Part shown: piece after piece, positions 8,847 to 44,032 of the stretch
Position numbering within the stretch: the stretch's first letter is position 1
How the letters are laid out: every line of letters begins with the position of its first letter
Assembly: GCA_938022165.1 (NCBI GenBank)
Contig: CALIEI010000053.1
Span: 2,111 to 66,110 of the forward strand
DNA length: 64,000 bases
Source: an uncultured Saprospiraceae bacterium
Lineage (GTDB): Bacteria; Bacteroidota; Bacteroidia; Chitinophagales; Saprospiraceae
Direction of reading: 5' to 3'
The notes under the pieces: model-generated
Database searches by the model: none
Told to the model about the DNA's origin: nothing
What the model saw: the letters and a program-made list of their open reading frames with translations, nothing else
Made by a program: the position numbers and the translations under genes

Positions 8847-10799
8847 ATGAATACATTGTTTAAAACCCTCTGTACTTTAATAATTTTCATAGGTATTTTG
8901 ACTACACTCATAGGTCAAAACAACGATATAGTTACCACCAACAACGCTAAACAATCTCTACAGATCGCCCAAGATCTGTTATCTAATGGTGAGAATCGAA
9001 AGGCTATTAAGCAATTAAAGCATACGATCAAGATAAAGAAAGAATTTGCAATTGCGCATAGACTATTAGGCAAAGCCTATTACGATATAGAAGAATTCGA
9101 ACTAGCAGTTGAAGCCCTTGAAAGATCATTTGATTTTGATCGTAAACTTTCCAGAGCCGCATTTTTTGAAATAGGTGACGCTTATCTACGACTACATAAT
9201 ACAGAGAAAGCAGAATACTACCTTGGCATCTATCAAGAGATGAAAGACAAGCGCTATGCAAATGCACAAAAAGAAAGCGGCTTAGAAAAATCGTACGACT
9301 TATACTATGAGGCGAAGTTGAACAATTTAGCTTACATAGAAACACTAGACACTACTCTAAACAAAGATATAATCATCTACCCTTTGACTAATGTAAATTC
9401 GGAAGACGACGAATATCTTCCAAGTTTAAGCAATGATGGTAGATATTTACTTTTTACCAGAGAAGTAGATAAGGTGCAAGAAGATATCTTTATCACAGAA
9501 CGAACAAAGGAAGGATGGGGCGACGCCAATGAAAATCCAATTCGCATAAATACTTCAAGAAACGAAGGCATGGCTAAATTCGAGCCGCACAATAGAAGAG
9601 TCTATTTTGCAGGCTGCCAGCGTAGTCCTGACAAGATTGATTGTGATATTTATGAAAGTGAGTTTAAAGATGGACAACTAGATAGCGAAAAACTAGCTGA
9701 TGACAAGATAAACTCTCCTTCTTGGGATTCACAGCCTTCCATTACTTGTGATGGCAATATATTGTTCTTTGCCTCTACACGCGAAGGTGGTATAGGCGGC
9801 TCCGATATATGGTTTTGCACAAAAGACGAAACAGGAAATTGGTCTTACCCTCAGAATGCTGGAGTCAACATTAATACGCCAGGAGACGAAGAAGCTCCAT
9901 TTGTCGCAAAAGATGGAATGCATTTATATTTCACTTCTAACTATCACCCCGGGCAAGGAGAGGGAGATTTCTTTGTGTCAAAAAATGAAAATGGGCATTG
10001 GGGACCTGCTATAAATTTGGGATATCCTATTAACTCTCCGGGAAAAGAACTTGGCCTATTTGTAACAGACAATACAGAGCATGTCTACTTTGCATCTGCT
10101 CGTGAAGGAGGTAAAGGAGGATTAGATTTATATTTTGCTAAAATGCCCGATTTAAATCGTCCCAAAAAAGTATTCCCTGTAGTTTTAAAAGTAATTGATA
10201 AGTTCACTAAAGAACATATACCCAATCAGCAAGTAATCGTTGGACACAACAATAAGAACTACAACTATACTAGTAATGATGAAGGCAATATCTATATGTG
10301 TCTAGCTGCCAATCAAGCCTATTCTTATCGCATCAGCAGAGAAGGATATAAGTTTTATGTCGAAGCGCACTTTCTAGAAGAATATATTCTAACCGCTGCA
10401 CAGACATTATACCTAGAAATGGAACCTAAGGTGGACAAGCCTGCATTTGTAGGTGAAGATCGTCATACTAAAACAATAGTGCAAGTTTATTTTGACGTCA
10501 ACTCTGCGGAGATTCCTGATAAAGATTTCGAAAAACTAGATCGCATCTCTCGGTTGATCAAAAAATATGATGATTGGAATGTAGAAGTTGTTGGCTTCGC
10601 AGATAGTACTGGAGACAAAGATTATAACTATAAACTTTCTCAGAAAAGAGCAGATAATGTAATAGCCTATCTGGCCACTAAAAGTACCCAAGAGATAAAA
10701 CAAAATATCCAGTCTTCTGCTCAAGGTGCAGTCACGCAAACCATGACTGAAGAAGAAAAGAAACAAAGTAGACGGGTAGATGTGATCTTGTCTCGCTAA
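8847..10799 (+). CDS. OmpA-family protein with N-terminal TPR and PD40/TolB-like beta-propeller repeats
   Basis: Signal peptide and TPR-like helices at the N-terminus. Repeated PD40-type motifs (EYLPSLSNDGRYLLFT, DSQPSITCDGNILFFAS, EEAPFVAKDGMHLYFTS, GKELGLFVTDNTEHVYFAS). C-terminal OmpA domain (VVGFADSTGDKDYNYKLSQKRADNV..RRVDVIL). Confidence 0.85.
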   Translation: MNTLFKTLCTLIIFIGILTTLIGQNNDIVTTNNAKQSLQIAQDLLSNGENRKAIKQLKHTIKIKKEFAIAHRLLGKAYYDIEEFELAVEALERSFDFDRKLSRAAFFEIGDAYLRLHNTEKAEYYLGIYQEMKDKRYANAQKESGLEKSYDLYYEAKLNNLAYIETLDTTLNKDIIIYPLTNVNSEDDEYLPSLSNDGRYLLFTREVDKVQEDIFITERTKEGWGDANENPIRINTSRNEGMAKFEPHNRRVYFAGCQRSPDKIDCDIYESEFKDGQLDSEKLADDKINSPSWDSQPSITCDGNILFFASTREGGIGGSDIWFCTKDETGNWSYPQNAGVNINTPGDEEAPFVAKDGMHLYFTSNYHPGQGEGDFFVSKNENGHWGPAINLGYPINSPGKELGLFVTDNTEHVYFASAREGGKGGLDLYFAKMPDLNRPKKVFPVVLKVIDKFTKEHIPNQQVIVGHNNKNYNYTSNDEGNIYMCLAANQAYSYRISREGYKFYVEAHFLEEYILTAAQTLYLEMEPKVDKPAFVGEDRHTKTIVQVYFDVNSAEIPDKDFEKLDRISRLIKKYDDWNVEVVGFADSTGDKDYNYKLSQKRADNVIAYLATKSTQEIKQNIQSSAQGAVTQTMTEEEKKQSRRVDVILSR

Positions 10800-27929: not shown

Positions 27930-27973
27930 CAATGTTTTGAGAAGTGAATTTAAACAAAAAAATTATTAATAAA

Positions 27974-28465
27974 ATGCTTGAAAATTTTACGGGTATCGAT
28001 GAAGCAGGAAAAAAGCAGCTCATTGACGCTATTGCACAGATTACGGTACTGATCGCAGGAGCAGATGGAATGATTGACACTGCAGAGACTGCATGGGCAA
28101 GCAAGTTGACCAAGATCCGATCATATGCTAATGAGGACCTTCTTCATGAGTATTATCAGTTGGTAGGACAATCTTTTGACAAAGACTTAAATGAATTGAT
28201 ATTGGCCCTTCCAAAAGATGTGGATGAGCGCACGACTATTCTTTCAGAAAAAATGGCTGCACTCAATGACTTGCTAGCAAAGCTGCCTAATAACATTGGA
28301 GCGACCTTATATACTAGCTTTACATCATTTGCTAAGCATGTTGCAGAAGCCAGTGGTGGATTTATGCGCATGTGGAGTGTAAGTGGTGAGGAGAAAAAAT
28401 TGATGTCTCTCCCGATGTTGACTCCAGTTGTTCTCATCGAACCTGAAGAAGAGGAAGAGGCATAA
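27974..28465 (+). CDS. hypothetical protein, possibly TerB-like
   Basis: LIAGADGMIDTAETAWASKL resembles the TerB-type ADG-x-I-D-x-x-E motif. Acidic C-terminal tail EPEEEEEA. Start chosen at the ATG at 27974. Confidence 0.4.
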   Translation: MLENFTGIDEAGKKQLIDAIAQITVLIAGADGMIDTAETAWASKLTKIRSYANEDLLHEYYQLVGQSFDKDLNELILALPKDVDERTTILSEKMAALNDLLAKLPNNIGATLYTSFTSFAKHVAEASGGFMRMWSVSGEEKKLMSLPMLTPVVLIEPEEEEEA

Positions 28466-28487
28466 GAAAATGTTTATTTGGGGGTAT

Positions 28488-28548
28488 CCCACCTTTAAGC
28501 AAAAGAGCCAAAGTGAATTTCACATTGGCTTTTTTGCTTAAAGGTGGG
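28488..28548 (+). terminator. long hairpin (24-bp stem, one mismatch, 13-nt loop) 22 nt after the stop codon
   Basis: CCCACCTTTAAGCAAAAGAGCCAA / TTGGCTTTTTTGCTTAAAGGTGGG. No U-tract follows the hairpin, so a terminator role is inferred from position only. Confidence 0.45.
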
Positions 28549-28680
28549 CCGTGCCATCCAGTACTCCACATTCGTTTCGGTCCCTTGCTGCGCTATCGCT
28601 TGCCAGTGACTGAGGCTAAAAAAGCCTCATACTTCCTACCACTTACCCGGTCACTAAAAATGCGGTTTTAATTCCAAAAT
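28549..28680. repeat. GC-rich intergenic island
   Basis: Shares GCGCTATC and TTCGGTCC-type words with 56640-56700 and ACCCGGTCA with 14360. Confidence 0.4.
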
Positions 28681-28851: not shown

Positions 28852-31800
28852 ATGAAAAAAGTTTTACTAATCTGTATTGCGGCTATTTTTACATTTCCCT
28901 TCTCCATTAAAGCACAGCAATGTATTTCTAATGTCTTTATGGAAAATTCGGCGTGTGATTCTCTTGGTATTTATACAGGCTTTGTCACTTTTGCGCATTC
29001 GCCAAATGTGGATTCTGTATCTCTTTTTTATGATAGTAATTTTTTTGGAAATCACTCGGTGGCAAATTTACCGATCGTGCTTCATCCATTAGTTAGTGAC
29101 GATTTTATTCACCTTGTTGAGGTTGTTGATGCAAATGTCACTACTTGCAGAGATTCTTTTCAACATTTCACTAATCATCAAAGTACTGCAAATTGTAGTG
29201 CAGAGATAATTGGTGTAAGTTCATTCTGTATAGATGACGTTTTGCATATTACCCTAAACTACTCTTTTGTAGAACCATTTAGTGAACCGCATATTACAGT
29301 TAATGGTGAGTTTATAAGCAATGGAGAAGTTGGCTTAGATCTAGTACAAACATTTACTGTACCTAGTAATCCAAATGCAGTGTATGAAATCAGTCTCGCA
29401 GATGCAGAATTACCTGAGTGCTCCGATGTTACATTTCTACAAGTTAGTGATTGTCAACCAAATTGTTTATTAGGTTGGGAGCTTTATGAAGTGGCTTGTG
29501 GACCAAACAATACCTATGAAGTGGAGTTTTTTATTGATGATAATGTAGGTGCCTTTAACGCTTATATAGATGATGAGCTTTTATTAAGTGCGCCAGATGC
29601 AGACTCCACTGTTTTCTATACGATAACAAACTTAGCTTCTGATTCTCTTCCATTAAGCCATACACTAACGGTTTGCTCACAAAATGAACCAAATTGCTGT
29701 GCTACATTTGATTATACAGATCCAGTTTGTGGAAATTTTACTTGTGATTTTCCAATAGAATTTAGGAATGCAAGTACTACCTGTGTTAGCGATAGTACCT
29801 ATCTTTTAAATGCAAGTATCACATCGGCGTCTCCAAGTAATTCATATTTATTAATTGATGTTAATCAAAATGAGTACGGTCCATTCACAGGTAATCCTTC
29901 TAATCAAGGCGACTTTGTATTTATAGAGGCACTTGTGGATTCAGACATTGCTGGTCAATTTATTATTTATGATGTAGCAAATCCGGCTTGTAGCGCCACT
30001 TTCGAAGCTAGTAAGGATTGTTCTGACTTTGCAAATTGCGGTGTTGAGATTCACGGAACAGAATATGAATGTAATGCTGATGAATTATTCATAATTATAA
30101 ATTATGACTTTGTAAATCCTTTTACTGAAGGACACGTCTTTATTAATGGTGATTACTTTAGCAATTTTGATTTTGGAATAGATAAGTTTATAACTATAGT
30201 CATCCCAAATCCAATCGACAATTTTAATTATGTGATTGAAATGCGTGATGCGGAGCTACCTGTTTGTGGAGATGAAGTAACGATAACACCTAACTGCTCT
30301 AATCAAGGAGAATGCGAAATTGTATTCCTACAAATCGGTGCAACAGAATGTAATGATGCCGTAGATGGCACTTACGACTTTGATGTATTCTTTGATATTG
30401 ATAACTACAATGCAAATCTTGTTGATGTATTCGTGAATAATACCTTCTATGACGCTGTGCCATTTACAACTCAAGGGGTGTCTATCACAGGCGTAACGCC
30501 AAGAGCAAATTCTGATTTTGACATTGTTAGAATTTGTTCTCAGCTTGATGAATCGTGTTGTATGGAGCTAGAGTTCATGCCACCCAATTGTGAAGTAGAA
30601 GAATGCGGTTATGAGAATGTATTTTTAGAATATGAATGCACCGGAAACGGAGATTACTTTGTGCATATTTCTTTTGAAGCGATAAATACTTCAAACAGTT
30701 TAGATCTCTTCATTGGTCAACAATTCTATACTAGTTTTCCAAATAGTCAAAATCTTATAACTGCAGGTCCATTTCCAAATGGTACTGGAAATGTTTTTCA
30801 ATTGAGAGATGAAGCAAATCCAGATTGTACTTATTTCGGTGAATTTTTCTGGCAAGAATGTCCAGTTGTAGATCCGTGTTCAGTAGATTTTATAGAAGTA
30901 CTTACTATCGAATGTAGAAACGATGGCACTTACGATATGGATGTATTATTCGAAACGACTAATGAAAATAATAACTTCGTAGATGTATTTGTGAATGACC
31001 AATTTATAGATTTCTTCCAAAATGACGGGAACTTGTCCTTGTTGAATATCACTCCAAGGCCTGGCACCAATGATGATATCATTACTATATGCGTAAATGA
31101 CAATCCAGATTGTTGTGAAACCATCGAATACTCGCAACCCGATTGTAGTGATGTCTTATGCTATATCGAAATAGTTGACATAGCGTACAACTGCGATATA
31201 CCCGGTATTTATCAGGGAGAGATCATTATAGAATCTCAAAATACATCTGGTGTATTAAATTTATTGATTAATGGTTCGGTTGAATATACAACTCAGCCAA
31301 ATCAAACCGTAATTCCTTTTGGAGCCTTACCAGATGGTATTGTATATAATTTTGCTATCGTAGATACACAATACGACTTCTGTGCTGCAGAAGGTGAGCT
31401 ATATACTAATAACTGCTCTGAATTTTGTTCTGTTGACTTTATAGAGGTCGTATCCTCAGAATGCAATCAAGACGGCAGTTATGACTTGAATGTATCATTT
31501 GGTACTACTGGGGCAAATAATGACTTTATAGATGTATTTGTTAATGACAACTTTTTCTCTTTTGTTGACAATGGCTTGTTTACTGTAGAGAACATCACTC
31601 CAAGAGAAGGTACTGACTTTGGAATTATTACCGTATGTGTAAGTGAAAATCCAAATTGTTGTACTACAATTGATTTTATACAACCTGATTGTGAAGGGAA
31701 TACAGCTTGCGATATAATAGATATCGAAGTAGATTACGTTTGCGACAATGATTCTTTGTATGGAGCAAACATTTATTTTGTATCTGAAAACACTTCCGGT

Positions 31801-34494
31801 ACAGTTGAAGTATTAGTGGGCAACCAAAGTCAAGGATTCTTTAATGTAGATGCACAGCCTATTCAGTTAAGTGGCTTTTTAAACGGAAGTGAGCATCTCT
31901 TACTCATTAGAGATGCGCAAATTCTAGGATGTACAGAAGAATTTGAATTATTCTTTGACGATTGTTCTCCTAATCAAAATACATGTACCATCACAAATCT
32001 AGATGTAGTCGAAATCGAGTGCAATGAGGATAACACTTTTGATATGATAGCTGCATACTCTATAGCAAATGCAAACAATTCTTTAATCGATGTATTCTTA
32101 AATGGTGATTTTTTTGAATCTTATTTTATTGGGAGTAGTGTTGTAATTGAAAACATTCCATTTAGCTTAACTACTGATATCAAGACTTTGACAATATGCT
32201 TAAATGACAATCCAGATTGCTGTCAGACTATTAACTATCAGCAACCAGATTGTGGTACTGAATGTAGTATCAGAGATTTGGAAGTAGTATATGAGTGTCA
32301 ATCTGATTCTTTATACCAAGCCTTTATCACTATCACAGCAGAAAACACTGCCTCTCCAATGGTAGACGTTTCTGTAAATGGAAATTCAATCGGACTATTT
32401 AATATAAATAATCAACCTTTCTTTGTAGGAACTTTTCTCAATGGAACCGCACATTCTGTAGTTGTTAATGCAATTCAGAATATGGGTTGCTCAGATGGAA
32501 TTGACATTTTCTTTGAAGAATGTATTGTAGATCCAGAGCCTTGTTTAGTAGAGTTTATAGAAGTAGACTCTATAGATTGTAATCCTAATGGAACATATAA
32601 CTTAGATGTCTATTGGGCAACTGCAAATACCAATAACGATCTTGTTGAAATTTCAGTAAACGGAGAAACGATAGACGTATTCTTAAATAATGGGCTTACC
32701 GCCTTATTCGAGATTACACCAAGGCCAAATTCAGATTTTGATATAATAGAAATTTGTGTTCCTAATAGTCCTGATTGTTGTAGTGTATTCGAATATCTGC
32801 AACCAGATTGTTCTGATTCGAATGAGTGTGCTATCGAAGAAAGATCGGTAGAATATGAATGCTTGGGCAATGGACAATATTTGGCTTACATTTCTTTTAT
32901 AGCTGATAATACTTCTGGGATATATGGCTTAGAAATAGATGGTGAGTTTTATGACACCATTCAGCAAACAAGTGCTGTCATAGAAGTAGGGCCTTTTGAG
33001 AATGGATCATTTCATGGCTACTATCTTTTTGATTTTGAAGATCGAAATTGTGGTGTAGATGGAGATATTTTTACACAAGAGTGCACTGGAGATTCAGAGC
33101 CTTGTGCTATTGAACATATAGAAGTTGAATCTTTAGTTTGTAATTCAGACGGAACCTATAATATAGATGTCTTTTGGGAAAGTGCAAATACCAATAGCGA
33201 TCTGGTAGAAATTTCAGTGAATGGTATAACAATAGACGTATTCTTAAATAATGGATTTACTACCCTATTCGAGATTACGCCAAGGAGTAATTCTGATTTT
33301 GATATTATTGAAATCTGTGTTCCTAATAGTCCAAATTGTTGTAATGCAATCGAATATTTGCAGTCAGTTTGTGAAGATATTCCGGATGATTGTACATTAT
33401 CAGATCTTGAAGTAGAGATCGATTGTGATGAGAATACAGGCTTAATTTTCCCAGCCCTATTCTTTGACTACGATCCTAGTTCTGTGGATGAAGTAATTGT
33501 AAATGTAAATGGGATCAATATTGGATTTTTTGATCCAAATATTCAACCTATAGAGTTAGATCAATTCATGAGCAATAGTTCAGCCGATTGGACATTTACT
33601 GTAACTAGTGCAACGGATTCACTATGCTTTGTCAGCACTGTTATTGAAGATCTTGAATGTGGAGGTGAATGTTTAATCGGAGCATTAGATGTAAGTACTG
33701 AATGTGAAAATGATGGAACAGTATTTTTCATTATCGACTTCTTTGCTAACAATACCAGCGGTCAAGTAGGTATAGTGGGTAATGGAAATCAATATGGTAA
33801 TTACAATGTTGATGATCTACCTATAACCTTAGGGCCTTTTGCTGCAGATGAAAATGATATCTGGGAGTTTGTGGTGTTTGATTTAAATGATGATGCCTGT
33901 AGTGAGGTTGCGGAACTGGACGATGTGCTTTGCGATGATTTAGCTGAACTGGAATGTGTAATTGAAGAATTTGAAGTAACTAATATCAACTGCATAGGCT
34001 CGAATGAATATTCAATGGTATTAGATTTTGAAGTAGCAAGTAACGGCCCTATTCCATTTACTTTGTTTCACAATGGACAATTGATGAACAGTGCAAATAC
34101 AGGTGCTTTACCTTTAAATCTAATCGGCTTGATAGCAAATGACTCTACAGAAATAGAGGTAATTACTATATGCCTAGATGGTTTGGCAGGTGAATGTTGC
34201 TTTGATTTCACCTATGAAACGCCAGCTTGCTTATTTGATGCGGTGGATGAGACACTTCTAGAAGGTGTGGATCTTAGTCCTAATCCTACTAGAGATGTTA
34301 TCAATATCAATCACATACCACAAGAGGTTATTGGATTGAATATTATAGATAATCTTGGTCGATCAATGACTCGGTTAAATGCGAGAGAGAATATGCAGTT
34401 GGATGTGTCGCGTTACCCAGAAGGTATTTACATGGTACAATTCTATACGCAGGATAACAGAGTGATGAGTAAGCGATTTATAAAAATGAACTAG
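28852..34494 (+). CDS. giant secreted/cell-surface T9SS cargo protein made of 19 tandem Cys-framed ~94-aa modules
   Basis: Signal peptide MKKVLLICIAAIFTFPFSIKAQQ. There are 19 modules, each opening with C-x(10-12)-C. Eight of them contain a CC doublet. T9SS type-A C-terminal sorting domain at aa 1808-1880 (LSPNPTRDVININ..GIYMVQFYTQDNRVMSKRFIKMN; nt 34273-34491). Confidence 0.9.
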   Translation: MKKVLLICIAAIFTFPFSIKAQQCISNVFMENSACDSLGIYTGFVTFAHSPNVDSVSLFYDSNFFGNHSVANLPIVLHPLVSDDFIHLVEVVDANVTTCRDSFQHFTNHQSTANCSAEIIGVSSFCIDDVLHITLNYSFVEPFSEPHITVNGEFISNGEVGLDLVQTFTVPSNPNAVYEISLADAELPECSDVTFLQVSDCQPNCLLGWELYEVACGPNNTYEVEFFIDDNVGAFNAYIDDELLLSAPDADSTVFYTITNLASDSLPLSHTLTVCSQNEPNCCATFDYTDPVCGNFTCDFPIEFRNASTTCVSDSTYLLNASITSASPSNSYLLIDVNQNEYGPFTGNPSNQGDFVFIEALVDSDIAGQFIIYDVANPACSATFEASKDCSDFANCGVEIHGTEYECNADELFIIINYDFVNPFTEGHVFINGDYFSNFDFGIDKFITIVIPNPIDNFNYVIEMRDAELPVCGDEVTITPNCSNQGECEIVFLQIGATECNDAVDGTYDFDVFFDIDNYNANLVDVFVNNTFYDAVPFTTQGVSITGVTPRANSDFDIVRICSQLDESCCMELEFMPPNCEVEECGYENVFLEYECTGNGDYFVHISFEAINTSNSLDLFIGQQFYTSFPNSQNLITAGPFPNGTGNVFQLRDEANPDCTYFGEFFWQECPVVDPCSVDFIEVLTIECRNDGTYDMDVLFETTNENNNFVDVFVNDQFIDFFQNDGNLSLLNITPRPGTNDDIITICVNDNPDCCETIEYSQPDCSDVLCYIEIVDIAYNCDIPGIYQGEIIIESQNTSGVLNLLINGSVEYTTQPNQTVIPFGALPDGIVYNFAIVDTQYDFCAAEGELYTNNCSEFCSVDFIEVVSSECNQDGSYDLNVSFGTTGANNDFIDVFVNDNFFSFVDNGLFTVENITPREGTDFGIITVCVSENPNCCTTIDFIQPDCEGNTACDIIDIEVDYVCDNDSLYGANIYFVSENTSGTVEVLVGNQSQGFFNVDAQPIQLSGFLNGSEHLLLIRDAQILGCTEEFELFFDDCSPNQNTCTITNLDVVEIECNEDNTFDMIAAYSIANANNSLIDVFLNGDFFESYFIGSSVVIENIPFSLTTDIKTLTICLNDNPDCCQTINYQQPDCGTECSIRDLEVVYECQSDSLYQAFITITAENTASPMVDVSVNGNSIGLFNINNQPFFVGTFLNGTAHSVVVNAIQNMGCSDGIDIFFEECIVDPEPCLVEFIEVDSIDCNPNGTYNLDVYWATANTNNDLVEISVNGETIDVFLNNGLTALFEITPRPNSDFDIIEICVPNSPDCCSVFEYLQPDCSDSNECAIEERSVEYECLGNGQYLAYISFIADNTSGIYGLEIDGEFYDTIQQTSAVIEVGPFENGSFHGYYLFDFEDRNCGVDGDIFTQECTGDSEPCAIEHIEVESLVCNSDGTYNIDVFWESANTNSDLVEISVNGITIDVFLNNGFTTLFEITPRSNSDFDIIEICVPNSPNCCNAIEYLQSVCEDIPDDCTLSDLEVEIDCDENTGLIFPALFFDYDPSSVDEVIVNVNGINIGFFDPNIQPIELDQFMSNSSADWTFTVTSATDSLCFVSTVIEDLECGGECLIGALDVSTECENDGTVFFIIDFFANNTSGQVGIVGNGNQYGNYNVDDLPITLGPFAADENDIWEFVVFDLNDDACSEVAELDDVLCDDLAELECVIEEFEVTNINCIGSNEYSMVLDFEVASNGPIPFTLFHNGQLMNSANTGALPLNLIGLIANDSTEIEVITICLDGLAGECCFDFTYETPACLFDAVDETLLEGVDLSPNPTRDVININHIPQEVIGLNIIDNLGRSMTRLNARENMQLDVSRYPEGIYMVQFYTQDNRVMSKRFIKMN

Positions 34495-34751: not shown

Positions 34752-35588
34752 CTACTTTTCAATCACAATCTTTTGTGTAAGAAATTCTTTTCCATCTGTT
34801 ATAGTCATGAAGTATATTCCAGCTGATAAATCATCAATAAAGAAGGGAATAGAATTCTGACCTGATTGAAGATTAATAGCTTGTTCTGCATATACTTTAC
34901 CAAGCATATCCACTATCATAACATTTACGTCTTTTGCAGATTCCGCTTGAATATTTAATTGAACAAAATCATTGGCTGGATTTGGGCTCAAGCTTGCTTC
35001 CAAAGTTTTTTCTAAAGCATTAGTAGAAGAAATGGTTTCACAAGTACCAGCTTCATCCACATGAATAAAGTATGATTCATTGGGTGCACCAATATCTTGT
35101 GGATAACGAATTTCTGCTCCAATAGGAAAAAAGAAATTAAAAGCTCTTAATCTTATCGTAAGGTCGTATGTCTCTGCTGGGTTAGTATCCGCTACATCAC
35201 CAGTGATCACGAAGCAAGCTACAGTCTCCGGCAAGAAAACACAAGTTGGTGGATTACAAGCATAATCTAATCCCTCTGGCAAGCCATCAATCGCGCCCTC
35301 CAAGTCAATAGTAATAGAATCTATGGCAAAATTTTGGCCGGCAAGTGTAATAGATGAAGGTACCATCGTGGTAAATACTTGCTCATAAAAGGAACCTACA
35401 CAAGTAGAGTCAATTCCACCAGTAAGCTCAACAGAATTGTATGGCTCCGGAAGTATTATGGAAGTGTCTGCTGTAATAGCCTCGGGTATACACACTGGAT
35501 CCTGTGCTTGCGCATTGAATATGAATGCTAGACTAAAAATCAGTATCGTAAATGTTTTGTGCATCATTTTTTTAATTTTAAGTTTCAT
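34752..35588 (-). CDS. T9SS C-terminal sorting domain-containing secreted protein
   Basis: Signal MKLKIKKMMHKTFTILIFSLAFIFNAQAQ from the ATG at 35588. CTD LSPNPANDFVQLNI..GIYFMTITDGKEFLTQKIVIEK. Confidence 0.8.
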   Translation of the reverse strand: MKLKIKKMMHKTFTILIFSLAFIFNAQAQDPVCIPEAITADTSIILPEPYNSVELTGGIDSTCVGSFYEQVFTTMVPSSITLAGQNFAIDSITIDLEGAIDGLPEGLDYACNPPTCVFLPETVACFVITGDVADTNPAETYDLTIRLRAFNFFFPIGAEIRYPQDIGAPNESYFIHVDEAGTCETISSTNALEKTLEASLSPNPANDFVQLNIQAESAKDVNVMIVDMLGKVYAEQAINLQSGQNSIPFFIDDLSAGIYFMTITDGKEFLTQKIVIEK

Positions 35589-35714
35589 TAGTTGATGACT
35601 ATCGTAAAAAAACAAAAGTAACACTATTGAATCAGTTTAACATAGAAAAGCAGATATATTAGCTATTTTAGCCATAAATCTGTCAAATTTAATAGTAAAA
35701 TTAGGTATTCCTAA

Positions 35715-38179: not shown

Positions 38180-38995
38180 ATGAAAAAGATATTAATTGCA
38201 CTAATCGCGTTGCTTAGTATAGGATTCATAAAGAATTCTGAAGCCTCTACTGGATTCCTCTTATTGAAGGAGACTGCTTCCTTTTTAACTATAAATAAAG
38301 TACTACACAAGGTCATTAATGAACCAAGCTGTGGTATCAAAGGATGCGAATATCCTGGCGACCATGATGAAAAGCATGAGAACCAAAGAAATCCTCGTCC
38401 ATTTTTATGGGATTCTGCTACGGAAAGATATCGCGAGGCTACAAAAGCTGAAACTGCTGCTATAAATAGATCTACAGAAGTAGACTTTCCCGGAAGAGAC
38501 GAGGAAGAGGATGAAGAAAAAGAAAAGCAAGAGGAAGAGGAAGAGGATGAAGAAAAAGAAGAGCCAGCGGAAGATGATGAAATCGATGATTTCTTTAAGG
38601 ATACCTTCGGTGATGGAGATGATGAGGAAGAGGAAGAAGAAGAAGAAGAAATTGAGGAGGACTTTGATGACGAAGAAATTGAAATAGAAGAGGAAGTTGA
38701 TTATGATGATGAAGAGATCAATGAAGAAGAGGATGACTTCTTTGAAGATGAAGATGAAAACTTCGAAGAAGAGGATGAAGAAGGTCCAGCACCTTCAGAT
38801 TCAGAAAAAGAAGACGGCAGTACCAATAATGATGAGGATCTAGAAGACTTGGATATAACAGACTGGGGAATCAAGCTTAAGGAACGACTGGAAGAAAAAT
38901 TAGATAAAGAAATCGAAAAAGTCGATCGTAAGATTGATAAGGAGATCGAAAAGCTTCGAAAGAAAAAAAAGAAGAGTGGCGATGGTGATAATTAA
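38180..38995 (+). CDS. secreted hyper-acidic (poly-Glu/Asp) protein with a Lys-rich tail
   Basis: Signal MKKILIALIALLSIGFIKNSEA. Roughly aa 105-225 are almost entirely E/D. The C-terminus has KEIEK repeats and KKKKK. Confidence 0.7.
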   Translation: MKKILIALIALLSIGFIKNSEASTGFLLLKETASFLTINKVLHKVINEPSCGIKGCEYPGDHDEKHENQRNPRPFLWDSATERYREATKAETAAINRSTEVDFPGRDEEEDEEKEKQEEEEEDEEKEEPAEDDEIDDFFKDTFGDGDDEEEEEEEEEIEEDFDDEEIEIEEEVDYDDEEINEEEDDFFEDEDENFEEEDEEGPAPSDSEKEDGSTNNDEDLEDLDITDWGIKLKERLEEKLDKEIEKVDRKIDKEIEKLRKKKKKSGDGDN

Positions 38996-39184: not shown

Positions 39185-41050
39185 TTAAAGTGACAAATCG
39201 ACAACAACATTGTTACCATGAGAAGTATTTTCGTCTATAAAAATCTCACCTTTTAAAGTTTTTATGCGTGCTAACAGATTTTTAGTAGCTAAAATAGGAT
39301 GTTGTCCATCATTTTCAATTATTAAATTTAAACTTTCTTTATGCTCAGTTATTTGAAGGGTGATATACGTAGCTATGGAAAGATTTATAGAAATGCTTAA
39401 TAATTCTTCTATTATGCGATAAATATATATTTTATTGAAAATCGAATAATTGTGTTGCAATTTATTATATCCTAGATCAATATTCAATAAATATTTTTGT
39501 TCTAGATTACTAATTAAATCCTTAATCGCTTGAATTATGCCAATTGAAATAAGCACTTTTGGCATAAGTGAATTCGAAATGCTACGTGTTGATTTTTGAG
39601 ATTTTTCAACAAGAGAAATTATTTCTTGTTTATTCGACAACTCCATTTGACTTAAATATAATTTTGAAATAGACAATAAACTTCCCAAATTATCATGTAG
39701 GTCGGATGCTATTCTTTGGCGTTCTAACTCTTGGCCTTCAATTAGTTTATTTGCAATTTTTATTTGATTTTTTTTACTTAAAATTATCAACCGGCCTTTC
39801 TCTTCTCTATCCTTCTTATACTTTTGAAAAACTATAAAAGACAGTACACTCATTTCGAATATAAACACAGGGAAAAATGAGTACTTTAAAAGACTCCAGT
39901 AAAGGATAACTCCACTCGATTGAAGAAAAACAAATGAAATGAATATTAAATATAGTATTATTACTACAACAAAGGATGCCTTTTCGAGAGTTCGACTTTT
40001 TAAATACTCCTTTAGACTTAAAATTAAAATCAAAATATATACAGAAACTACCGTACTTTGTAAAAAACAGATTAGAGTAAAAGAAATAATTTTATACGGA
40101 TAGAAAGTGTCTTTCAGAAACAATAAAATTGGAATCCCAAAAACAATTTGCAGCAAAATGAAAAAGAGTATCTTATAAATCAAAAAATAGATCTTTGGGT
40201 AATTTCTTTTTGCTTGAAAAAAAGTCAAACTAAAAATTGAAAATAATAGCAATTGAGAAATAGGAATCCCTATATTAACAATCCTAATTACCAACTTACT
40301 AGATTCTCCCCATAAATATTGATAGCCAAGACCTTCGCCTATCAAGCAATAAATAAACATTGTTAGAATTAGCAATAAATAATAAGCCAATAATTTAGTT
40401 CGAAAAAATAAGAAAACAATAAATCCCATTATTAGATAAAAAAGGCAGCTACCTATTAATATCCCTATTTTATACTTTTCTACTGAAGAATTTTCAACAA
40501 AATTCTCAGTACTTTGTAGTGTAAGATTTGTATAAATAATTGTACTTCCACGATATAAATTCAAGTAGCAATTTAAGGTATCATTCGCCGACATTTCAAT
40601 AGGTAAAAGGTAATTAAGATCTTTAACGGGCCTATCACTAAAATTTAAATCATCTCCAGTTAATATCTCATCAACCTTTCCATTACGGTTAAATGTAAAC
40701 CAGTTAACCCTACTTAAGCCGTAGTTATCGATATTTAAAAAGAATTGAATGCTATTGCTATCCGTATTAACTAATTTGAAATTAATCCAAGGACAAGATC
40801 TAAAATGATCAAACAGGAAGAAATCATAATTTTTATTATTCGTTAAAGAGAAATCAAGATTTTCATTATCAATAATTTTCTCAATAGACAATTCACAAGT
40901 AGAATCTTCAAATACCAATACTGTTGAACTGATGTTTACATTATCAAGTTCACTATTAACATATACTGTGTTAGCACTCGCCTTCGACAAGAAAACAAAT
41001 GGAATCAAAAAAAGAATAATTAGTACGGAATTCTTAATTCTAAACTTCAT
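39185..41050 (-). CDS. 7TM-DISM sensor, HisKA_3-type kinase paralog with an intact H-box and a degenerate ATP-binding domain
   Basis: Signal peptide plus a ~170-aa extracytoplasmic domain (7TMR-DISMED2-like) and about 7 hydrophobic helices. H-box ELERQRIASDLHDNLGS. The expected N-box reads EELLSISINLS (no N, no KH), G1 reads ENDGQHP, and there is no G2. Confidence 0.75.
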   Translation of the reverse strand: MKFRIKNSVLIILFLIPFVFLSKASANTVYVNSELDNVNISSTVLVFEDSTCELSIEKIIDNENLDFSLTNNKNYDFFLFDHFRSCPWINFKLVNTDSNSIQFFLNIDNYGLSRVNWFTFNRNGKVDEILTGDDLNFSDRPVKDLNYLLPIEMSANDTLNCYLNLYRGSTIIYTNLTLQSTENFVENSSVEKYKIGILIGSCLFYLIMGFIVFLFFRTKLLAYYLLLILTMFIYCLIGEGLGYQYLWGESSKLVIRIVNIGIPISQLLLFSIFSLTFFQAKRNYPKIYFLIYKILFFILLQIVFGIPILLFLKDTFYPYKIISFTLICFLQSTVVSVYILILILSLKEYLKSRTLEKASFVVVIILYLIFISFVFLQSSGVILYWSLLKYSFFPVFIFEMSVLSFIVFQKYKKDREEKGRLIILSKKNQIKIANKLIEGQELERQRIASDLHDNLGSLLSISKLYLSQMELSNKQEIISLVEKSQKSTRSISNSLMPKVLISIGIIQAIKDLISNLEQKYLLNIDLGYNKLQHNYSIFNKIYIYRIIEELLSISINLSIATYITLQITEHKESLNLIIENDGQHPILATKNLLARIKTLKGEIFIDENTSHGNNVVVDLSL

Positions 41051-42800
41051 CAGCTAAGGGAATATTGATTCTAATTTTTAAACCTGGTTCTTTTCTTCTT
41101 ATAATATTTATTTCACCTTTTAAATTTTCAGTCCTTACACTAAGTGTACTAAATCTTTGTTGCATATTCGAAATGCCAATACCATTATCTTCATAGAATA
41201 TCAGAAATTCATCACTAAGTTCTATTATTTCAATTTTAATTCCTGTTGCAAATGCGTGCTTTACGGCATTATTTAAAAGTTCTTGAATAATGCGATAAAT
41301 ATTTATCTTTTGAAAATCCGAAAATCGATGCTCAATATTATTTGAACTAAAAAGAATATCAAACTCAGATACTTCTTCAATTTGAACACAAAGATTTTCA
41401 ATATTTTTGATTAGATTTTTACTAAACAATATTTCCGGATTTAAATCCTTGGCAATTCTAATGACTTCATGTTTTGATCGTTTAAAATGGTTCAAAATTT
41501 TTTGGCCTAAGATAGAAGGTTTTTCTAGTTTGTATTTTTCTCGAAATAGAATACTCAATTCATTCAACAAGGGGTTTAGCTCATGCTTCATGTTCTCTGA
41601 TATTAGCGCTCGTTCTTGTTTTTGCCCTTTCAACAAAGTATTAGAAACTTCAAGTTCTTGTTGAGAATTTAGTAAACTGAGTTGTATTCTTTCTTTATTA
41701 GATGTCTGATAATTCTTAAGTATAATAATAGCCACTGTTAGAATCTCCATAATAAATATAGTCATTAGAACACCAGACTTAAAAAATATATTCTCAAATA
41801 GCCGAAAATAAATTACAGTATATAAACTTGTTATAAGTAATATATGAACTACATTAATCAGACATATTTCAATAAATTCAATTTTCTTTTGAGTCAATAT
41901 CTCTTTTGTTATTGAGGCTAAAAGTAAACCTATAGACAAGAAAATTAATATCAGATTTAAAAAAGGAATTAAAAAATAGAAGGTCTGAGCAAACTGTGAA
42001 TTTAATTCAAAAAAATAAGCTACTGAAGTGATAGGAATTATAATTAAGCTGATTTTTTTTATCCATTTGTAAATAGAAATTGGTATTTTATTTTCGGAAA
42101 AATGATTTAAAAATTCTTCACCAATAAGTATTAAAACTATTGTTGCAAAGAATGGTAGTATAAATTGTATAGTTGAATATATATTTGGATTGCCAAAAGG
42201 CAAATTAACCTGGTAAATGAATCCTTCCTTAAACAAAAAGAAAAGAAAGACTAAAGAAAAATAGATAAAATAATATAGAAGCCTTTTGGTATAAAGTATA
42301 AATGCAGCTACTAATAAAATAGATAAAAAGGTTAAACCTAAACCGATAAAGATACCATAGGTAATACTTCTATGTCCATTACTTTCTATAAAAGTAATTT
42401 TATCCCATAACTGAATTTGGGCATTCAGACTTTGATACTTTTTTTTAACTTTCAAATAACAAACAACTTCTTCATTTTCAGTCATTGTAATTGGATAAAG
42501 TGCATATCTGTGTTGAATAGGTTTTTGATCCAATGAGAAATCATGTTTTATAGTAGTTTTAATATCAGTTTTATCATTTCGTAGAATAAATAGTTCACAA
42601 TTTTGCAAATCAAGATCAGTTACTTCTAAAATCAAATTCTTTGTTCGATCACTACTGTTTATCAAAGAAAACTCGTACCACCAAACTGTTGGTGACGAAT
42701 TTCTGTAACTAAGAAGGTTATTAAATTTCGAAAAATTTAGATTTTGCCTATTGCTCAAAATAAAGCCTAAACTCTGCTCAATAGTAGTGTCTTTATACAC
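41040..42800 (-). CDS. 7TM-DISM sensor, HisKA_3-type kinase paralog with intact N/G1 boxes and an atypical H-box
   Basis: Same architecture as its neighbour. N-box QELLNNAVKHA and G1 EDNGIGIS are present. The H-box region reads KQERALISENMKHELNP. GTG start at 42800, but the frame is open upstream to 42962. It overlaps the downstream paralog by 11 nt. Confidence 0.7.
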   Translation of the reverse strand: MYKDTTIEQSLGFILSNRQNLNFSKFNNLLSYRNSSPTVWWYEFSLINSSDRTKNLILEVTDLDLQNCELFILRNDKTDIKTTIKHDFSLDQKPIQHRYALYPITMTENEEVVCYLKVKKKYQSLNAQIQLWDKITFIESNGHRSITYGIFIGLGLTFLSILLVAAFILYTKRLLYYFIYFSLVFLFFLFKEGFIYQVNLPFGNPNIYSTIQFILPFFATIVLILIGEEFLNHFSENKIPISIYKWIKKISLIIIPITSVAYFFELNSQFAQTFYFLIPFLNLILIFLSIGLLLASITKEILTQKKIEFIEICLINVVHILLITSLYTVIYFRLFENIFFKSGVLMTIFIMEILTVAIIILKNYQTSNKERIQLSLLNSQQELEVSNTLLKGQKQERALISENMKHELNPLLNELSILFREKYKLEKPSILGQKILNHFKRSKHEVIRIAKDLNPEILFSKNLIKNIENLCVQIEEVSEFDILFSSNNIEHRFSDFQKINIYRIIQELLNNAVKHAFATGIKIEIIELSDEFLIFYEDNGIGISNMQQRFSTLSVRTENLKGEINIIRRKEPGLKIRINIPLADEV

Positions 42801-43378
42801 TTGTACTGAATTTAAAATGCTGCGATAATCGAACGTATCTTTTATAATGAAAGTAGTTGGTTCAATTTCACTATGAAGTACTTGAATAAATTGGAAGAAG
42901 AAGAATGCGAAGGTGCAATATTTTCGTATCAGAGTAATTGCTTTTAGACTACAAAAAATAGATTACAATATGGCAAATTACTCTTTTGTCACAAAGATTT
43001 TTATATTATTTCTAATAGTATCGTCGTCTATTCTATTAATGCTGAAAACTTAGATAGATGTTTTCCAACATTAAGATACAAGAATCCAATTGTCACATTT
43101 TTCAATATTGTTATATTTTTTTAATGGTTATTTCGAGTTAAGATTTTGAAAGAGATACATAAATGAATTAAAAATAAAATTTGTTCAGAACTGTATCTAT
43201 CAATCAGTTTGAAATACATGAGATAATCGAATTACTTGTAATTATATCGACTAGAGATCTTAATACGCATTATAGAAATTGTAAAATTTAGAAGAAAAAT
43301 TATATAAATTTCACTTTCAATTCTTTTGATAACAAGATATTTTCAACTTAATTGTGTTTCCAATAACCTAATAAGCAA

Positions 43379-44032
43379 ATGACTCAAAACACAATAAAAA
43401 TTGTCGTTGTTGACGACCATCCTGTTGTAATAGATGGACTGAAGCTAACCTTGAAAGACATTCAGAATTTAAGCATAATTGGAGAAGCGTATACTGAAAA
43501 CCAAATTTATACAGTCATCAAAAACTGCAAACCCGATATATTAATTTTAGACCTTAATCTTAACGGAACTAATTCCCTAACTTTTCTAGATAAAATATAT
43601 AGTATTCAGTCAGATATTAAAACTATTATTTTCTCTTCTTATAATACTCCAAGCTTAATACGTTCCATGTCACAATCCAAAGTGAATTGCTTCATTCCAA
43701 AAGATGCTTCAAAGTTCGAGCTAGTAGATGCAATTTATAAAGTACATAATGGAGAAAAATATATTTTTAATAAGACTGGGATGTGTACTGATCAAACTGA
43801 TATTGACAATAACGATTTCATAGATTCTTTTCTAAAAATGAACAATCTTACTCAACGAGAATTAGAAGTAATTCGATTGATTGTTAAGGGTTTTACTAGT
43901 GATGACATCTCTAAGAAACTGTTTATCAGTAAGCATACTGTACAGTCGCACAGAAAAAATATTTTGCGAAAACTTGAACTTCATGACAGGTCAGATATTG
44001 TGAAATTTGCATATGAAAATAAATTGATGTAA
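43379..44032 (+). CDS. NarL/LuxR-family response regulator
   Basis: REC domain (IVVVDDHPVV, DILILDLNLNG, IIFSSY, IPKD). LuxR HTH LTQRELEVIRLIVKGFTSDDISKKLFISKHTVQSHRKNILRKL. Confidence 0.9.
   Translation: MTQNTIKIVVVDDHPVVIDGLKLTLKDIQNLSIIGEAYTENQIYTVIKNCKPDILILDLNLNGTNSLTFLDKIYSIQSDIKTIIFSSYNTPSLIRSMSQSKVNCFIPKDASKFELVDAIYKVHNGEKYIFNKTGMCTDQTDIDNNDFIDSFLKMNNLTQRELEVIRLIVKGFTSDDISKKLFISKHTVQSHRKNILRKLELHDRSDIVKFAYENKLM

What the first reader, a model, noticed from the sequence alone, without database searches (positions are those of the whole stretch)
28852..34494. 1880-aa T9SS cargo built from 19 tandem Cys-framed ~94-aa modules of a type I cannot place in any known domain family
Between the signal peptide and the T9SS sorting domain, the whole protein (aa 24-1807) divides into 19 contiguous modules, each opening with C-x(10-12)-C. 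Eight are 6-Cys 'A' modules: C-x11-C...ITPR..D.DI..IC..(D/E/N)(N/S)P(D/N)CC-x(9-10)-C, for example CSVDFIEVLTIEC..NITPRPGTNDDIITICVNDNPDCCETIEYSQPDC. Eleven are 4-Cys modules: nine 'B', for example CDIIDIEVDYVC..ENTSG..NG..H..IRD....C-x(9-11)-C, and two 'C' variants near the N-terminus. From module 6 onward, A and B alternate almost strictly, which suggests an A-B dyad of about 187 aa as the evolutionary unit. The even Cys counts and the conserved positions fit disulfide-stapled beta-sandwich beads on a string, as in a surface fibre or adhesin. None of the motifs match SprB, cadherin-like, HYR, PKD, Big or FN3 signatures as I remember them.
Basis: partly seen in the sequence, partly recalled or inferred. 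Interest (0 to 1): 0.7.

Follow-up and report, generated by a model that had tools for sequence, protein, structure and literature searches.

The report
Disulfide-clamped FN3-like bead fibre, T9SS cargo
This gene encodes a long, very acidic secreted protein made of 19 small fibronectin-III-like beads, each pinned shut by two or three disulfide bonds. The bead is an unannotated domain family found in over a thousand mostly Saprospiraceae-type proteins, so it is new as a family but not as a kind of protein.

Summary
ORF 28852-34494 (+) encodes 1880 aa: a signal peptide, 19 contiguous ~93-aa Cys-framed modules, and a T9SS type A sorting domain. One correction: module 1 has 3 Cys, not 4.

All 19 modules are one homologous domain. 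A has 6 Cys; B and C have 4. No Pfam or NCBIfam model matches them, as whole proteins or as single modules.

The fold is not new. AlphaFold gives a 7-strand sandwich (pLDDT 95), and Foldseek finds only generic FN3/Ig-like domains and tandem FN3 arrays. Coevolution over about 1,900 modules reproduces the FN3 strand topology.

That analysis supports the pairings C72-C80 (A-specific) and C1-C79. C13-C90 follows by elimination. The first and last strands are therefore tied together at both ends.

The family has 1,255 representative proteins carrying 7-37 modules each. Genome hits are almost all Saprospiraceae, Lewinellaceae or Chitinophagales MAGs.

Best reading: a T9SS-exported, polyanionic surface fibre or adhesin stalk that cannot be stretched. 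It is functionally analogous to isopeptide- or ester-locked Gram-positive stalk domains. Function and anchoring are inferred, not shown. It is a new sequence family of a known kind, of moderate interest.

The parts
28852..34494 (+). Whole gene: 1880-aa precursor (signal peptide, 19 modules, T9SS CTD), including the stop codon
   Evidence: ORF; CTD; modules
28852..28914 (+). Sec signal peptide, aa 1-21 (MKKVLLICIAAIFTFPFSIKA|QQC); probable signal peptidase I site after IKA
   Evidence: read from the translation; no predictor was run
28921..29193 (+). m1 (aa 24-114), B-like, only 3 Cys because the 4th framing Cys is lost
   Evidence: the equivalent module in P0002 and P0059 has 4 Cys
29194..29463 (+). 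m2 (aa 115-204), 4-Cys 'C' variant, 37-39% identical to m5
29464..29742 (+). m3 (aa 205-297), A type, 6 Cys
29743..30036 (+). m4 (aa 298-395), B type, 4 Cys, opens with C-x12-C
30037..30312 (+). m5 (aa 396-487), 4-Cys 'C' variant
30313..30603 (+). m6 (aa 488-584), A type, 6 Cys
30604..30876 (+). m7 (aa 585-675), B type
30877..31158 (+). m8 (aa 676-769), A type; the module modelled alone (7-strand FN3-like sandwich, pLDDT 95.1, pTM 0.84)
31159..31425 (+). m9 (aa 770-858), B type; modelled with m8 as a dyad and shows the same 7-strand pattern
31426..31707 (+). m10 (aa 859-952), A type
31708..31983 (+). m11 (aa 953-1044), B type
31984..32262 (+). m12 (aa 1045-1137), A type
32263..32541 (+). m13 (aa 1138-1230), B type
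32542..32826 (+). m14 (aa 1231-1325), A type, 72% identical to m16
32827..33102 (+). m15 (aa 1326-1417), B type
33103..33390 (+). m16 (aa 1418-1513), A type
33391..33669 (+). m17 (aa 1514-1606), B type
33670..33954 (+). m18 (aa 1607-1701), B type; the only B-B junction after m6
33955..34236 (+). m19 (aa 1702-1795), A type, next to the CTD; 55% identical to its P0059 counterpart, making it the best conserved module
34276..34491 (+). T9SS type A C-terminal sorting domain (about aa 1809-1880)
   Evidence: PF18962 aa 1810-1877, E=3.8e-10, 40.3 bits against cut-off 27; TIGR04183 aa 1809-1878, E=2e-9, 37.3 bits against cut-off 23
28480..28560 (+). Strong hairpin between the upstream 173-aa ORF and the gene. 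It probably insulates the gene as a separate transcription unit.
   Evidence: RNA MFE -53.6 kcal/mol, z=-11.5; sequence

Best explanation
The gene encodes a Sec-exported precursor. Its 19 FN3-like beta-sandwich modules would fold and be oxidised in the periplasm. The T9SS would then export the protein through its type A C-terminal sorting domain, and it would most likely stay attached to the cell surface as a thin, highly negatively charged fibre. If extended, I estimate roughly 70 nm (19 beads of about 3.5-4 nm each).

Each bead is covalently clamped. C1-C79 and C13-C90 tie the first strand (A) to the last strand (G) at both poles. A-type beads add C72-C80, which closes the acidic F-G loop (consensus C-x-N-D-N-P-D/N-C-C).

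The chain enters a bead at C1 and leaves at C90. Tensile force would therefore bypass residues 2-78 through the C1-C79 bond. The beads should not unfold under load, and they should resist proteases. This makes the protein an inextensible stalk or tether for adhesion or spacing. Its tip would be the N-terminal modules.

Alternating dissimilar neighbours (adjacent modules average 17.5% identity; maximum 30%) would limit misfolding between adjacent beads.

Shown here: the architecture, the fold class, the conserved Cys positions and their coevolving partners, the CTD, and the family's size and taxonomic range. Inferred: oxidation, surface anchoring, mechanical role, ligand.
For: Architecture and CTD.

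One homologous domain.

Fold:
- AF2 gives pLDDT 95.1 and pTM 0.84 for m8, with seven strands.
- The A-B dyad gives pLDDT 92.5, and the B module shows the same strand pattern.
- Foldseek against PDB gives FN3/Ig-like domains at TMq 0.6-0.72.
- For the dyad it gives tandem FN3 arrays from RIM-BP, fibronectin, tenascin and titin at E 2e-6 to 1e-3.

Independent topology check: mean-field DCA on 1,879 modules recovers A-B, B-E, C-C', C-F and F-G antiparallel contacts. It also recovers A-G parallel contacts (1-79, 3-81, 8-83), which is the FN3 ABE/C'CFG layout.

Disulfides over 1,956 modules:
- Cys frequencies are C1 0.94, C13 0.97, C79 0.99 and C90 0.94.
- C72 and C80 are present together in 654 modules, alone in 15 and both absent in 1,287 (phi 0.98). 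They are also the top DCA pair, score 10.5.
- C1-C79 is DCA rank 4 and phi 0.29.
- 89% of modules have an even Cys count.

Charge: the mature protein has 311 D+E against 27 K+R and a calculated pI of about 4.05. Neighbouring proteins have 10-15% K+R and about 0.8% Cys.

Stalk and tip pattern: the gene is positionally conserved in three loci but only 34% identical, against 61-65% for the adjacent TonB-dependent receptor. The N-terminal and C-terminal modules are better conserved than the central ones. Module number differs between orthologs: 19, 19 and 17.

Experimental precedent: an isopeptide, an ester or an engineered disulfide between the first and last strands makes Ig-like stalk domains inextensible (PMC8382745).

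Lifestyle context: Saprospiraceae encode the T9SS, and some members live attached to other bacteria (PMC9304909).
Against: - There are no expression, localisation or disulfide-mapping data.
- C13-C90 rests on elimination and on A-G register. Its own DCA score is low (1.6), and rival Cys-Cys pairs score similarly (1.8-2.1).
- Type A CTD cargo is surface-anchored in Porphyromonas but often released in other Bacteroidota (my own background knowledge, not checked here). Anchoring is therefore uncertain.
- There is no distinct ligand-binding head domain and no known ligand.
- m1 lacks one Cys, so at least one thiol is unpaired.
- The genome is an uncultured MAG lineage.
Confidence: 0.55

Rival explanations
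1. The protein is a released matrix or cation-binding protein and not an anchored fibre. After export the CTD is removed and the polyanionic chain is shed. It would then act as an extracellular scaffold or as a Ca2+/metal-binding polymer. The disulfides would serve only to stabilise it against proteases.
For: Net charge is about -284 and K+R is 1.6%. A modules carry a conserved Asp/Asn-rich F-G loop. A neighbouring syntenic gene encodes a protein with 39% D+E. From background knowledge, many type A CTD proteins are released in non-Porphyromonas Bacteroidota.
Against: No recognised Ca2+-binding motif or family matches. An array of 19 clamped beads with short 4-8 residue linkers fits a stalk better than a sequestering polymer. 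Orthologs keep the tips conserved and vary the middle.
Confidence: 0.2
2. The protein is a multivalent glycan-binding (CBM-like) protein. Each bead would bind polysaccharide, and the array would capture substrate for the adjacent TonB-dependent receptor.
For: The gene order fibre, small T9SS cargo, TonB-dependent receptor is conserved in three loci. The top single-domain Foldseek hits are accessory domains of glycoside hydrolases. There are weak hits to CBM36-containing xylanases, lectins and BetaGal_ABD2.
Against: All of those sequence hits are non-significant (E >= 2.6e-4 on single modules; at most 3 of 95 modules hit any family). There is no SusD-like partner, no glycoside hydrolase and no PUL organisation nearby. 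The three loci come from related genomes, so the synteny may only reflect relatedness.
Confidence: 0.12
3. The protein is a subunit of a multi-stranded appendage like the Aureispira grappling hook GhpA. Several chains would bundle side by side into a rigid hollow stem.
For: GhpA is a T9SS substrate of a Saprospiraceae member. It is built of 52 Ig-like repeats with intramolecular disulfides (bioRxiv 10.1101/2024.01.29.577165). GhpA fragments appear among the dyad Foldseek hits with the highest identities, 15-17% (9flu, 9fly, 9flp; E 7e-4 to 1e-3). The odd Cys count would allow an intermolecular bond.
Against: The module profile shows no sequence similarity to GhpA at E<=10. The Foldseek scores are no better than for generic FN3 arrays. 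GhpA has an N-terminal hook/adhesin region and adjacent PorP/PorE-like genes ghpB/C. This protein has neither within the window. A charge of about -284 per chain argues against tight lateral packing without counter-ions.
Confidence: 0.08

Closest known systems
Tandem fibronectin type III (FN3) arrays, such as fibronectin, tenascin, titin and bacterial FN3-like modules (C. thermocellum CbhA)
   Same: Seven-strand ABE/C'CFG sandwich of about 90 aa. N and C termini sit at opposite poles. Modules are joined head to tail by short linkers. Foldseek TMq is 0.6-0.72 for one module and E is down to 2e-6 for the dyad. The strand pairing is reproduced by coevolution.
   Different: There is no detectable sequence relationship: Pfam fn3 does not match at E<=1, and aligned identity is 8-17%. 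Classical FN3 domains lack disulfides (background knowledge). Here four framing Cys are 94-99% conserved, and the protein is extremely acidic.
Covalently locked Ig-like stalk domains of Gram-positive surface proteins: Spy0128 pilin (isopeptide) and Cpe0147 (ester)
   Same: A covalent bond between the first and last beta-strands of an Ig-like stalk repeat short-circuits the force path and makes the domain inextensible. An engineered disulfide at the same place in Cpe0147 C1 also locks the domain (PMC8382745). The proposed role of C1-C79 and C13-C90 is the same.
   Different: The chemistry differs (disulfide, not isopeptide or ester). There are two clamps per domain, not one. The export route differs (Gram-negative Sec plus T9SS, not sortase). 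There is no homology. The mechanics were not tested here.
GhpA grappling-hook protein of Aureispira (T9SS substrate, Saprospiraceae)
   Same: Same bacterial family-level lineage, same secretion system and long arrays of Ig-like repeats with disulfides. There is weak structural similarity.
   Different: No sequence similarity. GhpA has 5,898 aa, forms heptamers, has a distal hook module and sits next to PorP/PorE-like anchor genes. Its reported disulfides link neighbouring domains, not the first and last strands of one domain.
RTX-adhesin extender domains with calcium clamps (MpAFP, MhLap)
   Same: Long arrays of Ig-like extender beads in very acidic bacterial surface adhesins. The beads are mechanically reinforced at their ends (PMC5380327, listed). 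The profile gives weak sub-threshold hits to RTX-adhesin and antifreeze-protein chains (E 0.8-2).
   Different: Reinforcement there is by Ca2+ and export is by T1SS. Those hits are not significant.
SprB, RemA and other large repeat adhesins exported by the T9SS
   Same: Giant T9SS cargo made of repeated beta-sandwich domains, with a cell-surface role.
   Different: No match to SprB, HYR, PKD, cadherin-like or Big models. The CTD is type A, not type B. No gliding-motility genes are adjacent.

Membership tests
T9SS type A cargo (Por_Secre_tail / TIGR04183) | C-terminal ~75-aa sorting domain scoring above the curated cut-off | tested here: met
   PF18962 40.3 bits against cut-off 27; TIGR04183 37.3 bits against cut-off 23, at aa 1809-1878
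T9SS type A cargo (Por_Secre_tail / TIGR04183) | N-terminal Sec signal peptide | tested here: met
   MKKVLLICIAAIFTFPFSIKA|QQ read from the translation; no dedicated predictor was available
T9SS type A cargo (Por_Secre_tail / TIGR04183) | Host is a Bacteroidota organism with a T9SS; export depends on it | not testable with these tools
   MutS places the window in Saprospiraceae/Lewinellaceae/Chitinophagales. Three further CTD proteins lie in the window. No core T9SS gene lies within the 64 kb, and no secretome data exist.
Pfam fn3 (PF00041) and other named Ig-like repeat families (SprB, HYR, PKD, cadherin-like, Big) | Sequence match to the family HMM | tested here: not met
   No such family matches at E<=1 for the whole protein. 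None matches among 95 single modules, where the best hit to any family is E=2.6e-4, in at most 3 modules, to unrelated families. None matches in 13 other family members.
FN3-like / Ig-like (E-set) fold class | Seven-strand sandwich with ABE and C'CFG sheets, and A parallel to G | tested here: met
   AF2 DSSP shows 7 strands. Foldseek finds FN3 domains at TMq 0.6-0.72. DCA contacts have A-B sum ~31, B-E sum ~77, C-F sum ~108, F-G sum 152 and A-G difference 75-78.
FN3-like / Ig-like (E-set) fold class | Profile-profile homology to an E-set clan family (HHpred, CATH, SUPERFAMILY) | not testable with these tools
   No such library was available. A PDB sequence-profile search gave nothing below E=0.012.
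GhpA-type grappling hook | Sequence homology to GhpA repeats | tested here: not met
   The module profile against PDB sequences, which include 9flu/9fly/9flp, gives no GhpA hit at E<=10. Foldseek gives only E~1e-3.
GhpA-type grappling hook | N-terminal hook/adhesin module and adjacent PorP/PorE-like anchor genes | tested here: not met
   Modules begin at aa 24. The neighbours are MutS, a small T9SS cargo and a TonB-dependent receptor. An OmpA-family/PD40 gene lies 18 kb away at 8847-10799.
New Cys-framed module family (defined here) | ~93-aa module with Cys at profile positions 1, 13, 79 and 90, in tandem arrays | tested here: met
   Eighteen of the 19 window modules have all four Cys; m1 lacks C90. 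Family frequencies are 0.94, 0.97, 0.99 and 0.94 over 1,956 modules. 1,255 representative proteins match, with 7-37 modules per listed protein.
New Cys-framed module family (defined here) | The Cys residues actually form the disulfides C1-C79, C13-C90 and (A type) C72-C80 | tested here: inconclusive
   Co-occurrence and DCA strongly support 72-80, moderately support 1-79 and only indirectly support 13-90.

The most novel reading that the evidence does not exclude
The module may be a lineage-specific invention of Saprospiraceae-type Bacteroidota: an FN3-like bead whose first and last strands are tied by two conserved disulfides. That would make T9SS-exported fibres mechanically inextensible while oxidised and extensible once reduced. 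It would be a Gram-negative, redox-switchable counterpart of the isopeptide- or ester-locked stalks of Gram-positive pili. Interchangeable Cys patterns (B, A, D) would tune bead stiffness or junction geometry.
Probability: 0.3. Interest if true: 0.55.

Novelty: new variant of a known kind. Interest (0 to 1): 0.4.

Why it matters
The domain family is large: 1,255 representative clusters, and about 2,000 modules in the best 156 proteins. It has no Pfam or NCBIfam model, so these giant proteins are currently annotated only by their T9SS tail. A family definition would annotate thousands of MAG proteins.

The conserved double clamp between first and last strands gives a concrete hypothesis that can be tested by force spectroscopy. 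It addresses how Gram-negative T9SS fibres withstand load.

Saprospiraceae are abundant in wastewater and aquatic systems, and some live attached to other bacteria. Their surface fibres are therefore candidate attachment determinants.

The kind of protein, a repeat-bead surface fibre, is familiar, so the finding adds to existing knowledge and does not overturn any of it.

Tried and rejected
- Searching GTDB genomes with the module alignments A2 and A3 failed because no stretch was conserved enough.
- The full-length protein found no relative in GTDB genomes. A tighter B-module alignment (A5) worked.
- An exact look-up of the window protein's own contig found nothing on record.
- Cluster look-ups returned almost no names.
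- The PDB sequence-profile search gave nothing significant. The best hit was SlpX at E=0.012.
- Tandem Repeats Finder found no DNA-level module repeats.
- The consensus terminator and promoter scan downstream of the gene found nothing.
- I hypothesised that the module next to the CTD is always A type. That holds in the 7 closest proteins but only in 33 of 94 CTD-bearing family members, so I rejected it.
- I first doubted dyad duplication from the window's identity matrix. I revised this to partly supported after finding matched dyad duplications in P0002 and P0059.
- The Bacteroidota O-glycosylation motif D(S/T)(A/I/L/V/M/T) is not enriched: 11 observed against 8.2 +/- 2.8 expected.
- GhpA membership was considered and rejected.
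- Literature searches for a description of this module found none.
- Weak Pfam hits (BRAP2, Gal-bind_lectin, Choline_kinase, Tachylectin) were dismissed as repeat-summed noise with no significant individual stretch.
Full report
**1. Observation**

It contains 92 Cys (4.9%). One lies in the signal peptide. The other 91 follow a strict period: spacings of 11-13, then 58-69, then 10-11 (B) or 7, 1, 10 (A), then 4-8 to the next module.

Splitting at each C-x(10-12)-C gives 19 contiguous modules of 89-106 aa covering aa 24-1807. Eight have 6 Cys (m3, 6, 8, 10, 12, 14, 16, 19) and ten have 4. m1 has only 3, because its last framing Cys is missing. This is a small correction to the finding, and it leaves the mature protein with an odd Cys count.

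From m6 onward A and B alternate, with one B-B exception. No two A modules are adjacent. By my calculation the chance of that is C(12,8)/C(19,8) = 0.0065.

All 19 modules align to one another. A, B and C are therefore Cys-pattern variants of a single domain. Mean identities are 32% for A-A, 22% for B-B and 19% for A-B. The repeats are ancient, since Tandem Repeats Finder sees nothing at the DNA level.

**2. What the ends are**

The N-terminus reads as a Sec signal peptide (MKKVLLICIAAIFTFPFSIKA|QQC). The C-terminus is a T9SS type A sorting domain above both curated cut-offs: PF18962 E=3.8e-10 and TIGR04183 E=2e-9.

**3. Are the modules a known family?**

Not by sequence.
- Pfam-A and NCBIfam report nothing but the CTD for the whole protein, even at E<=1.
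- When 95 single modules from this protein and six homologs were scanned one by one, no Pfam family matched more than 3 modules. The best E-value was 2.6e-4, to unrelated families.
- Thirteen other family members gave only the CTD plus noise.
- A module profile against all PDB sequences gave nothing below E=0.012.
- Public sources name these proteins only as "T9SS type A sorting domain-containing" or "hypothetical".
- Three literature searches found no description of the module.

**4. Fold**

I modelled m8 (A type) with a 95-module alignment. AlphaFold2 gave pLDDT 95.1 and pTM 0.84, with seven strands at residues 2-13, 19-28, 34-39, 42-48, 52-58, 66-73 and 80-86.

The m8-m9 dyad gave pLDDT 92.5 and pTM 0.60. 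The B module shows the same seven-strand pattern. This means two confident beads with a loosely defined relative orientation.

Foldseek against PDB found no match at E<=1e-3 for the single module. The best hits are FN3/Ig-like accessory domains and FN3 monobodies, at TMq 0.6-0.72. The dyad matches tandem FN3 arrays from RIM-BP, fibronectin, tenascin and titin at E 2e-6 to 1e-3. It also matches fragments of the Aureispira grappling-hook protein GhpA at E about 1e-3.

As an independent check I ran mean-field DCA on 1,879 modules taken from the 156 best family proteins. The top couplings reproduce the FN3 topology:
- A-B, B-E, C-C', C-F and F-G antiparallel ladders.
- A-G parallel contacts 1-79, 3-81 and 8-83.

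The bead is therefore a new sequence family with an FN3-like fold. It is not a new fold.

**5. Disulfides**

I used the family instead.

| Profile position | Cys frequency over 1,956 modules |
|---|---|
| 1 | 0.94 |
| 13 | 0.97 |
| 79 | 0.99 |
| 90 | 0.94 |

- C72 and C80, the A-specific pair, are present together in 654 modules, singly in 15 and both absent in 1,287 (phi 0.98). They are by far the strongest DCA coupling (10.5, against 4.8 for the next). In the model they flank the F-G hairpin.
- C1-C79 is the fourth strongest coupling and has phi 0.29. Thirteen of the 17 modules that lack C79 also lack C1. This fits the parallel A/G register, which has an offset of 78.
- C13-C90 (offset 77) follows by elimination and by register. 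Its own signal is weak.
- A third pattern, which I call D, has C63 with C89 or C91 (phi 0.66 and 0.49) and occurs in about 10% of modules.
- Even Cys counts occur in 89% of modules.

Strand A is thus tied to strand G at both poles of the bead.

**6. Family and taxonomy**

The k-mer-seeded search found only 7 proteins. An exhaustive HMMER profile search of 1.84 billion representatives found 1,255 proteins at E<=1e-3 and 663 at E<=1e-30. The listed proteins carry 7-37 modules each.

Architectures vary widely:
- Pure B arrays of up to 36 modules.
- BABA... and DADA... alternations.
- Long A runs.
- In many members, a non-module block of about 330 aa before the CTD.

Of the 156 best proteins, 94 end in a CTD-like segment.

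A pattern scan of GTDB species genomes returned 24 loci. All are MAGs, and nearly all are labelled Saprospiraceae, Saprospirales, Lewinellaceae, Chitinophagales or unclassified Bacteroidota/Bacteroidetes; one is labelled Bacteroidales. The window's own MutS is 63-66% identical to proteins of the same groups.

**7. Context and evolution**

The window is ordinary chromosome. It carries MutS, FabH, PNPase, RpoD, FolP and similar genes. The gene is insulated upstream by a very strong hairpin, and the downstream gene is convergent.

Two co-linear homologs, P0002 (17 modules) and P0059 (19 modules), sit in the same position. In both, the gene is followed by a small convergent T9SS cargo, a TonB-dependent receptor and an acidic protein of about 270 aa.

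The fibre is only 34% identical between these loci, against 61-65% for the receptor. This fits a fast-evolving exposed protein.

Against P0059, m1-m6 are 37-51% identical and m18, m19 and the CTD are 41-70% identical. Both groups are mostly better conserved than m7-m11 (19-40%). Whole-module indels fall around m14-m16. This pattern suggests a conserved tip and base with a variable stalk.

P0002's locus has two extra upstream paralogs built of the same module.

Dyad duplication is visible in the orthologs. In P0002, adjacent module pairs match another adjacent pair at 68%/66%. In P0059 the figures are 50%/64%. In the window protein the signal is weak.

In P0002 the B-lineage modules have themselves gained the C72/C80 pair. 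Cys pattern and module lineage are therefore not the same thing.

**8. Composition**

The mature protein has 311 D+E against 27 K+R and a calculated pI of about 4.05. The family median is 15.8% D+E and 2.1% K+R. Other proteins in the window have 10-15% K+R and about 0.8% Cys. The acidity and Cys richness are properties of this protein, not of the proteome.

**9. Mechanism**

This section is inference resting on the facts above.

The route would be Sec export, periplasmic folding and oxidation, T9SS export of the folded beads, then CTD removal and probably surface attachment.

The chain enters each bead at C1 and leaves just after C90. With C1-C79 formed, tensile force runs from C1 across the disulfide to C79 and along strand G to C90. 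Residues 2-78 are bypassed, so the bead should be inextensible.

The experimental precedent is direct. Isopeptide (Spy0128) and ester (Cpe0147) bonds between the first and last strands of Ig-like stalk domains block mechanical extension. An engineered disulfide at the same site in Cpe0147 C1 also locks the domain (PMC8382745).

Adjacent modules here average only 17.5% identity (maximum 30%). Alternating dissimilar neighbours would reduce misfolding between adjacent domains. That last point rests on background knowledge, not a test here.

The most likely role is a rigid, protease-resistant, polyanionic stalk or adhesin of about 70 nm. Members of this lineage are known to live attached to other bacteria and to encode the T9SS (PMC9304909).

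The rivals are a shed polyanionic matrix or cation-binding protein, a multivalent glycan binder serving the neighbouring TonB-dependent receptor, and a GhpA-like multi-stranded appendage. None is excluded, and each has weaker support.

**10. Verdict**

- The modules are one domain, not three.
- The fold is FN3-like.
- The A-B dyad is a recurrent but not obligatory unit.

Novelty is at the level of a new, sizeable, lineage-restricted sequence family with a distinctive conserved double clamp between first and last strands. It sits within a well-known kind of protein. Interest is moderate (0.4).

Noticed in passing
window 28480-28560: An 81-nt near-perfect hairpin (RNA MFE -53.6 kcal/mol, z=-11.5) lies between the 173-aa ORF and the fibre gene. 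It may be a terminator or a palindromic repeat element.
   Followed up: partly
window 38180-38995 (+); L001 16791-17630; L027 10135-10917: A 271-aa protein with a signal-peptide-like N-terminus and 39% D+E, including long poly-Glu/Asp tracts. It has no Pfam match and is conserved in synteny downstream of the TonB-dependent receptor in all three loci.
   Followed up: partly
window ~39185-44032: A low-GC block (27%, against about 37% elsewhere) carries two 7TMR-DISM histidine kinases and a LuxR-type response regulator. It is absent from the syntenic locus L027, where the acidic gene is followed directly by YkuD and GDPD genes. It is probably an insertion.
   Followed up: partly
window 34752-35624 (-): A small (290-aa) Cys-containing T9SS cargo with no other Pfam domain, convergent with the fibre gene. 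It is conserved in position in L001 and L027 at 51-58% identity.
   Followed up: partly
L001 938-4384 and 4655-7591: The ortholog locus carries two additional tandem paralogs built of the same module (10 and 9 modules), directly upstream of the 17-module ortholog. The window has only one copy.
   Followed up: partly
family proteins P0005, P0019, P0026, P0034 and others: A third Cys pattern, 'D' (extra Cys at profile position 63 paired with 89 or 91), occurs in about 10% of modules. One member (P0005, a Saprospiraceae MAG protein) is Lys-rich, unlike the rest of the family, which is acidic.
   Followed up: partly
P0003 aa 2624-2953; P0006 aa 2020-2346; many others: Many family members carry a non-module block of about 330 aa between the last module and the CTD. 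It contains a dockerin-like WPGDxNxDG...D motif and matches no Pfam model. P0003 also has two inserts of about 165 aa between N-terminal modules.
   Followed up: no
window aa 24-114 of the fibre (28921-29193): m1 has lost its fourth framing Cys, unlike m1 of P0002 and P0059. The mature protein therefore has 91 Cys. Under the inferred pairing, Cys35 is unpaired near the distal tip.
   Followed up: partly
window 60293-61525 (-) and 58599-60179 (+): A DDE transposase (DDE_Tnp_1 with DUF4372) lies next to another T9SS cargo (526 aa) that has no other recognisable domain.
   Followed up: no
window 27944-28465 (+): A 173-aa ORF directly upstream, with an acidic C-terminal tail (EPEEEEEA) and no Pfam match.
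   Followed up: no
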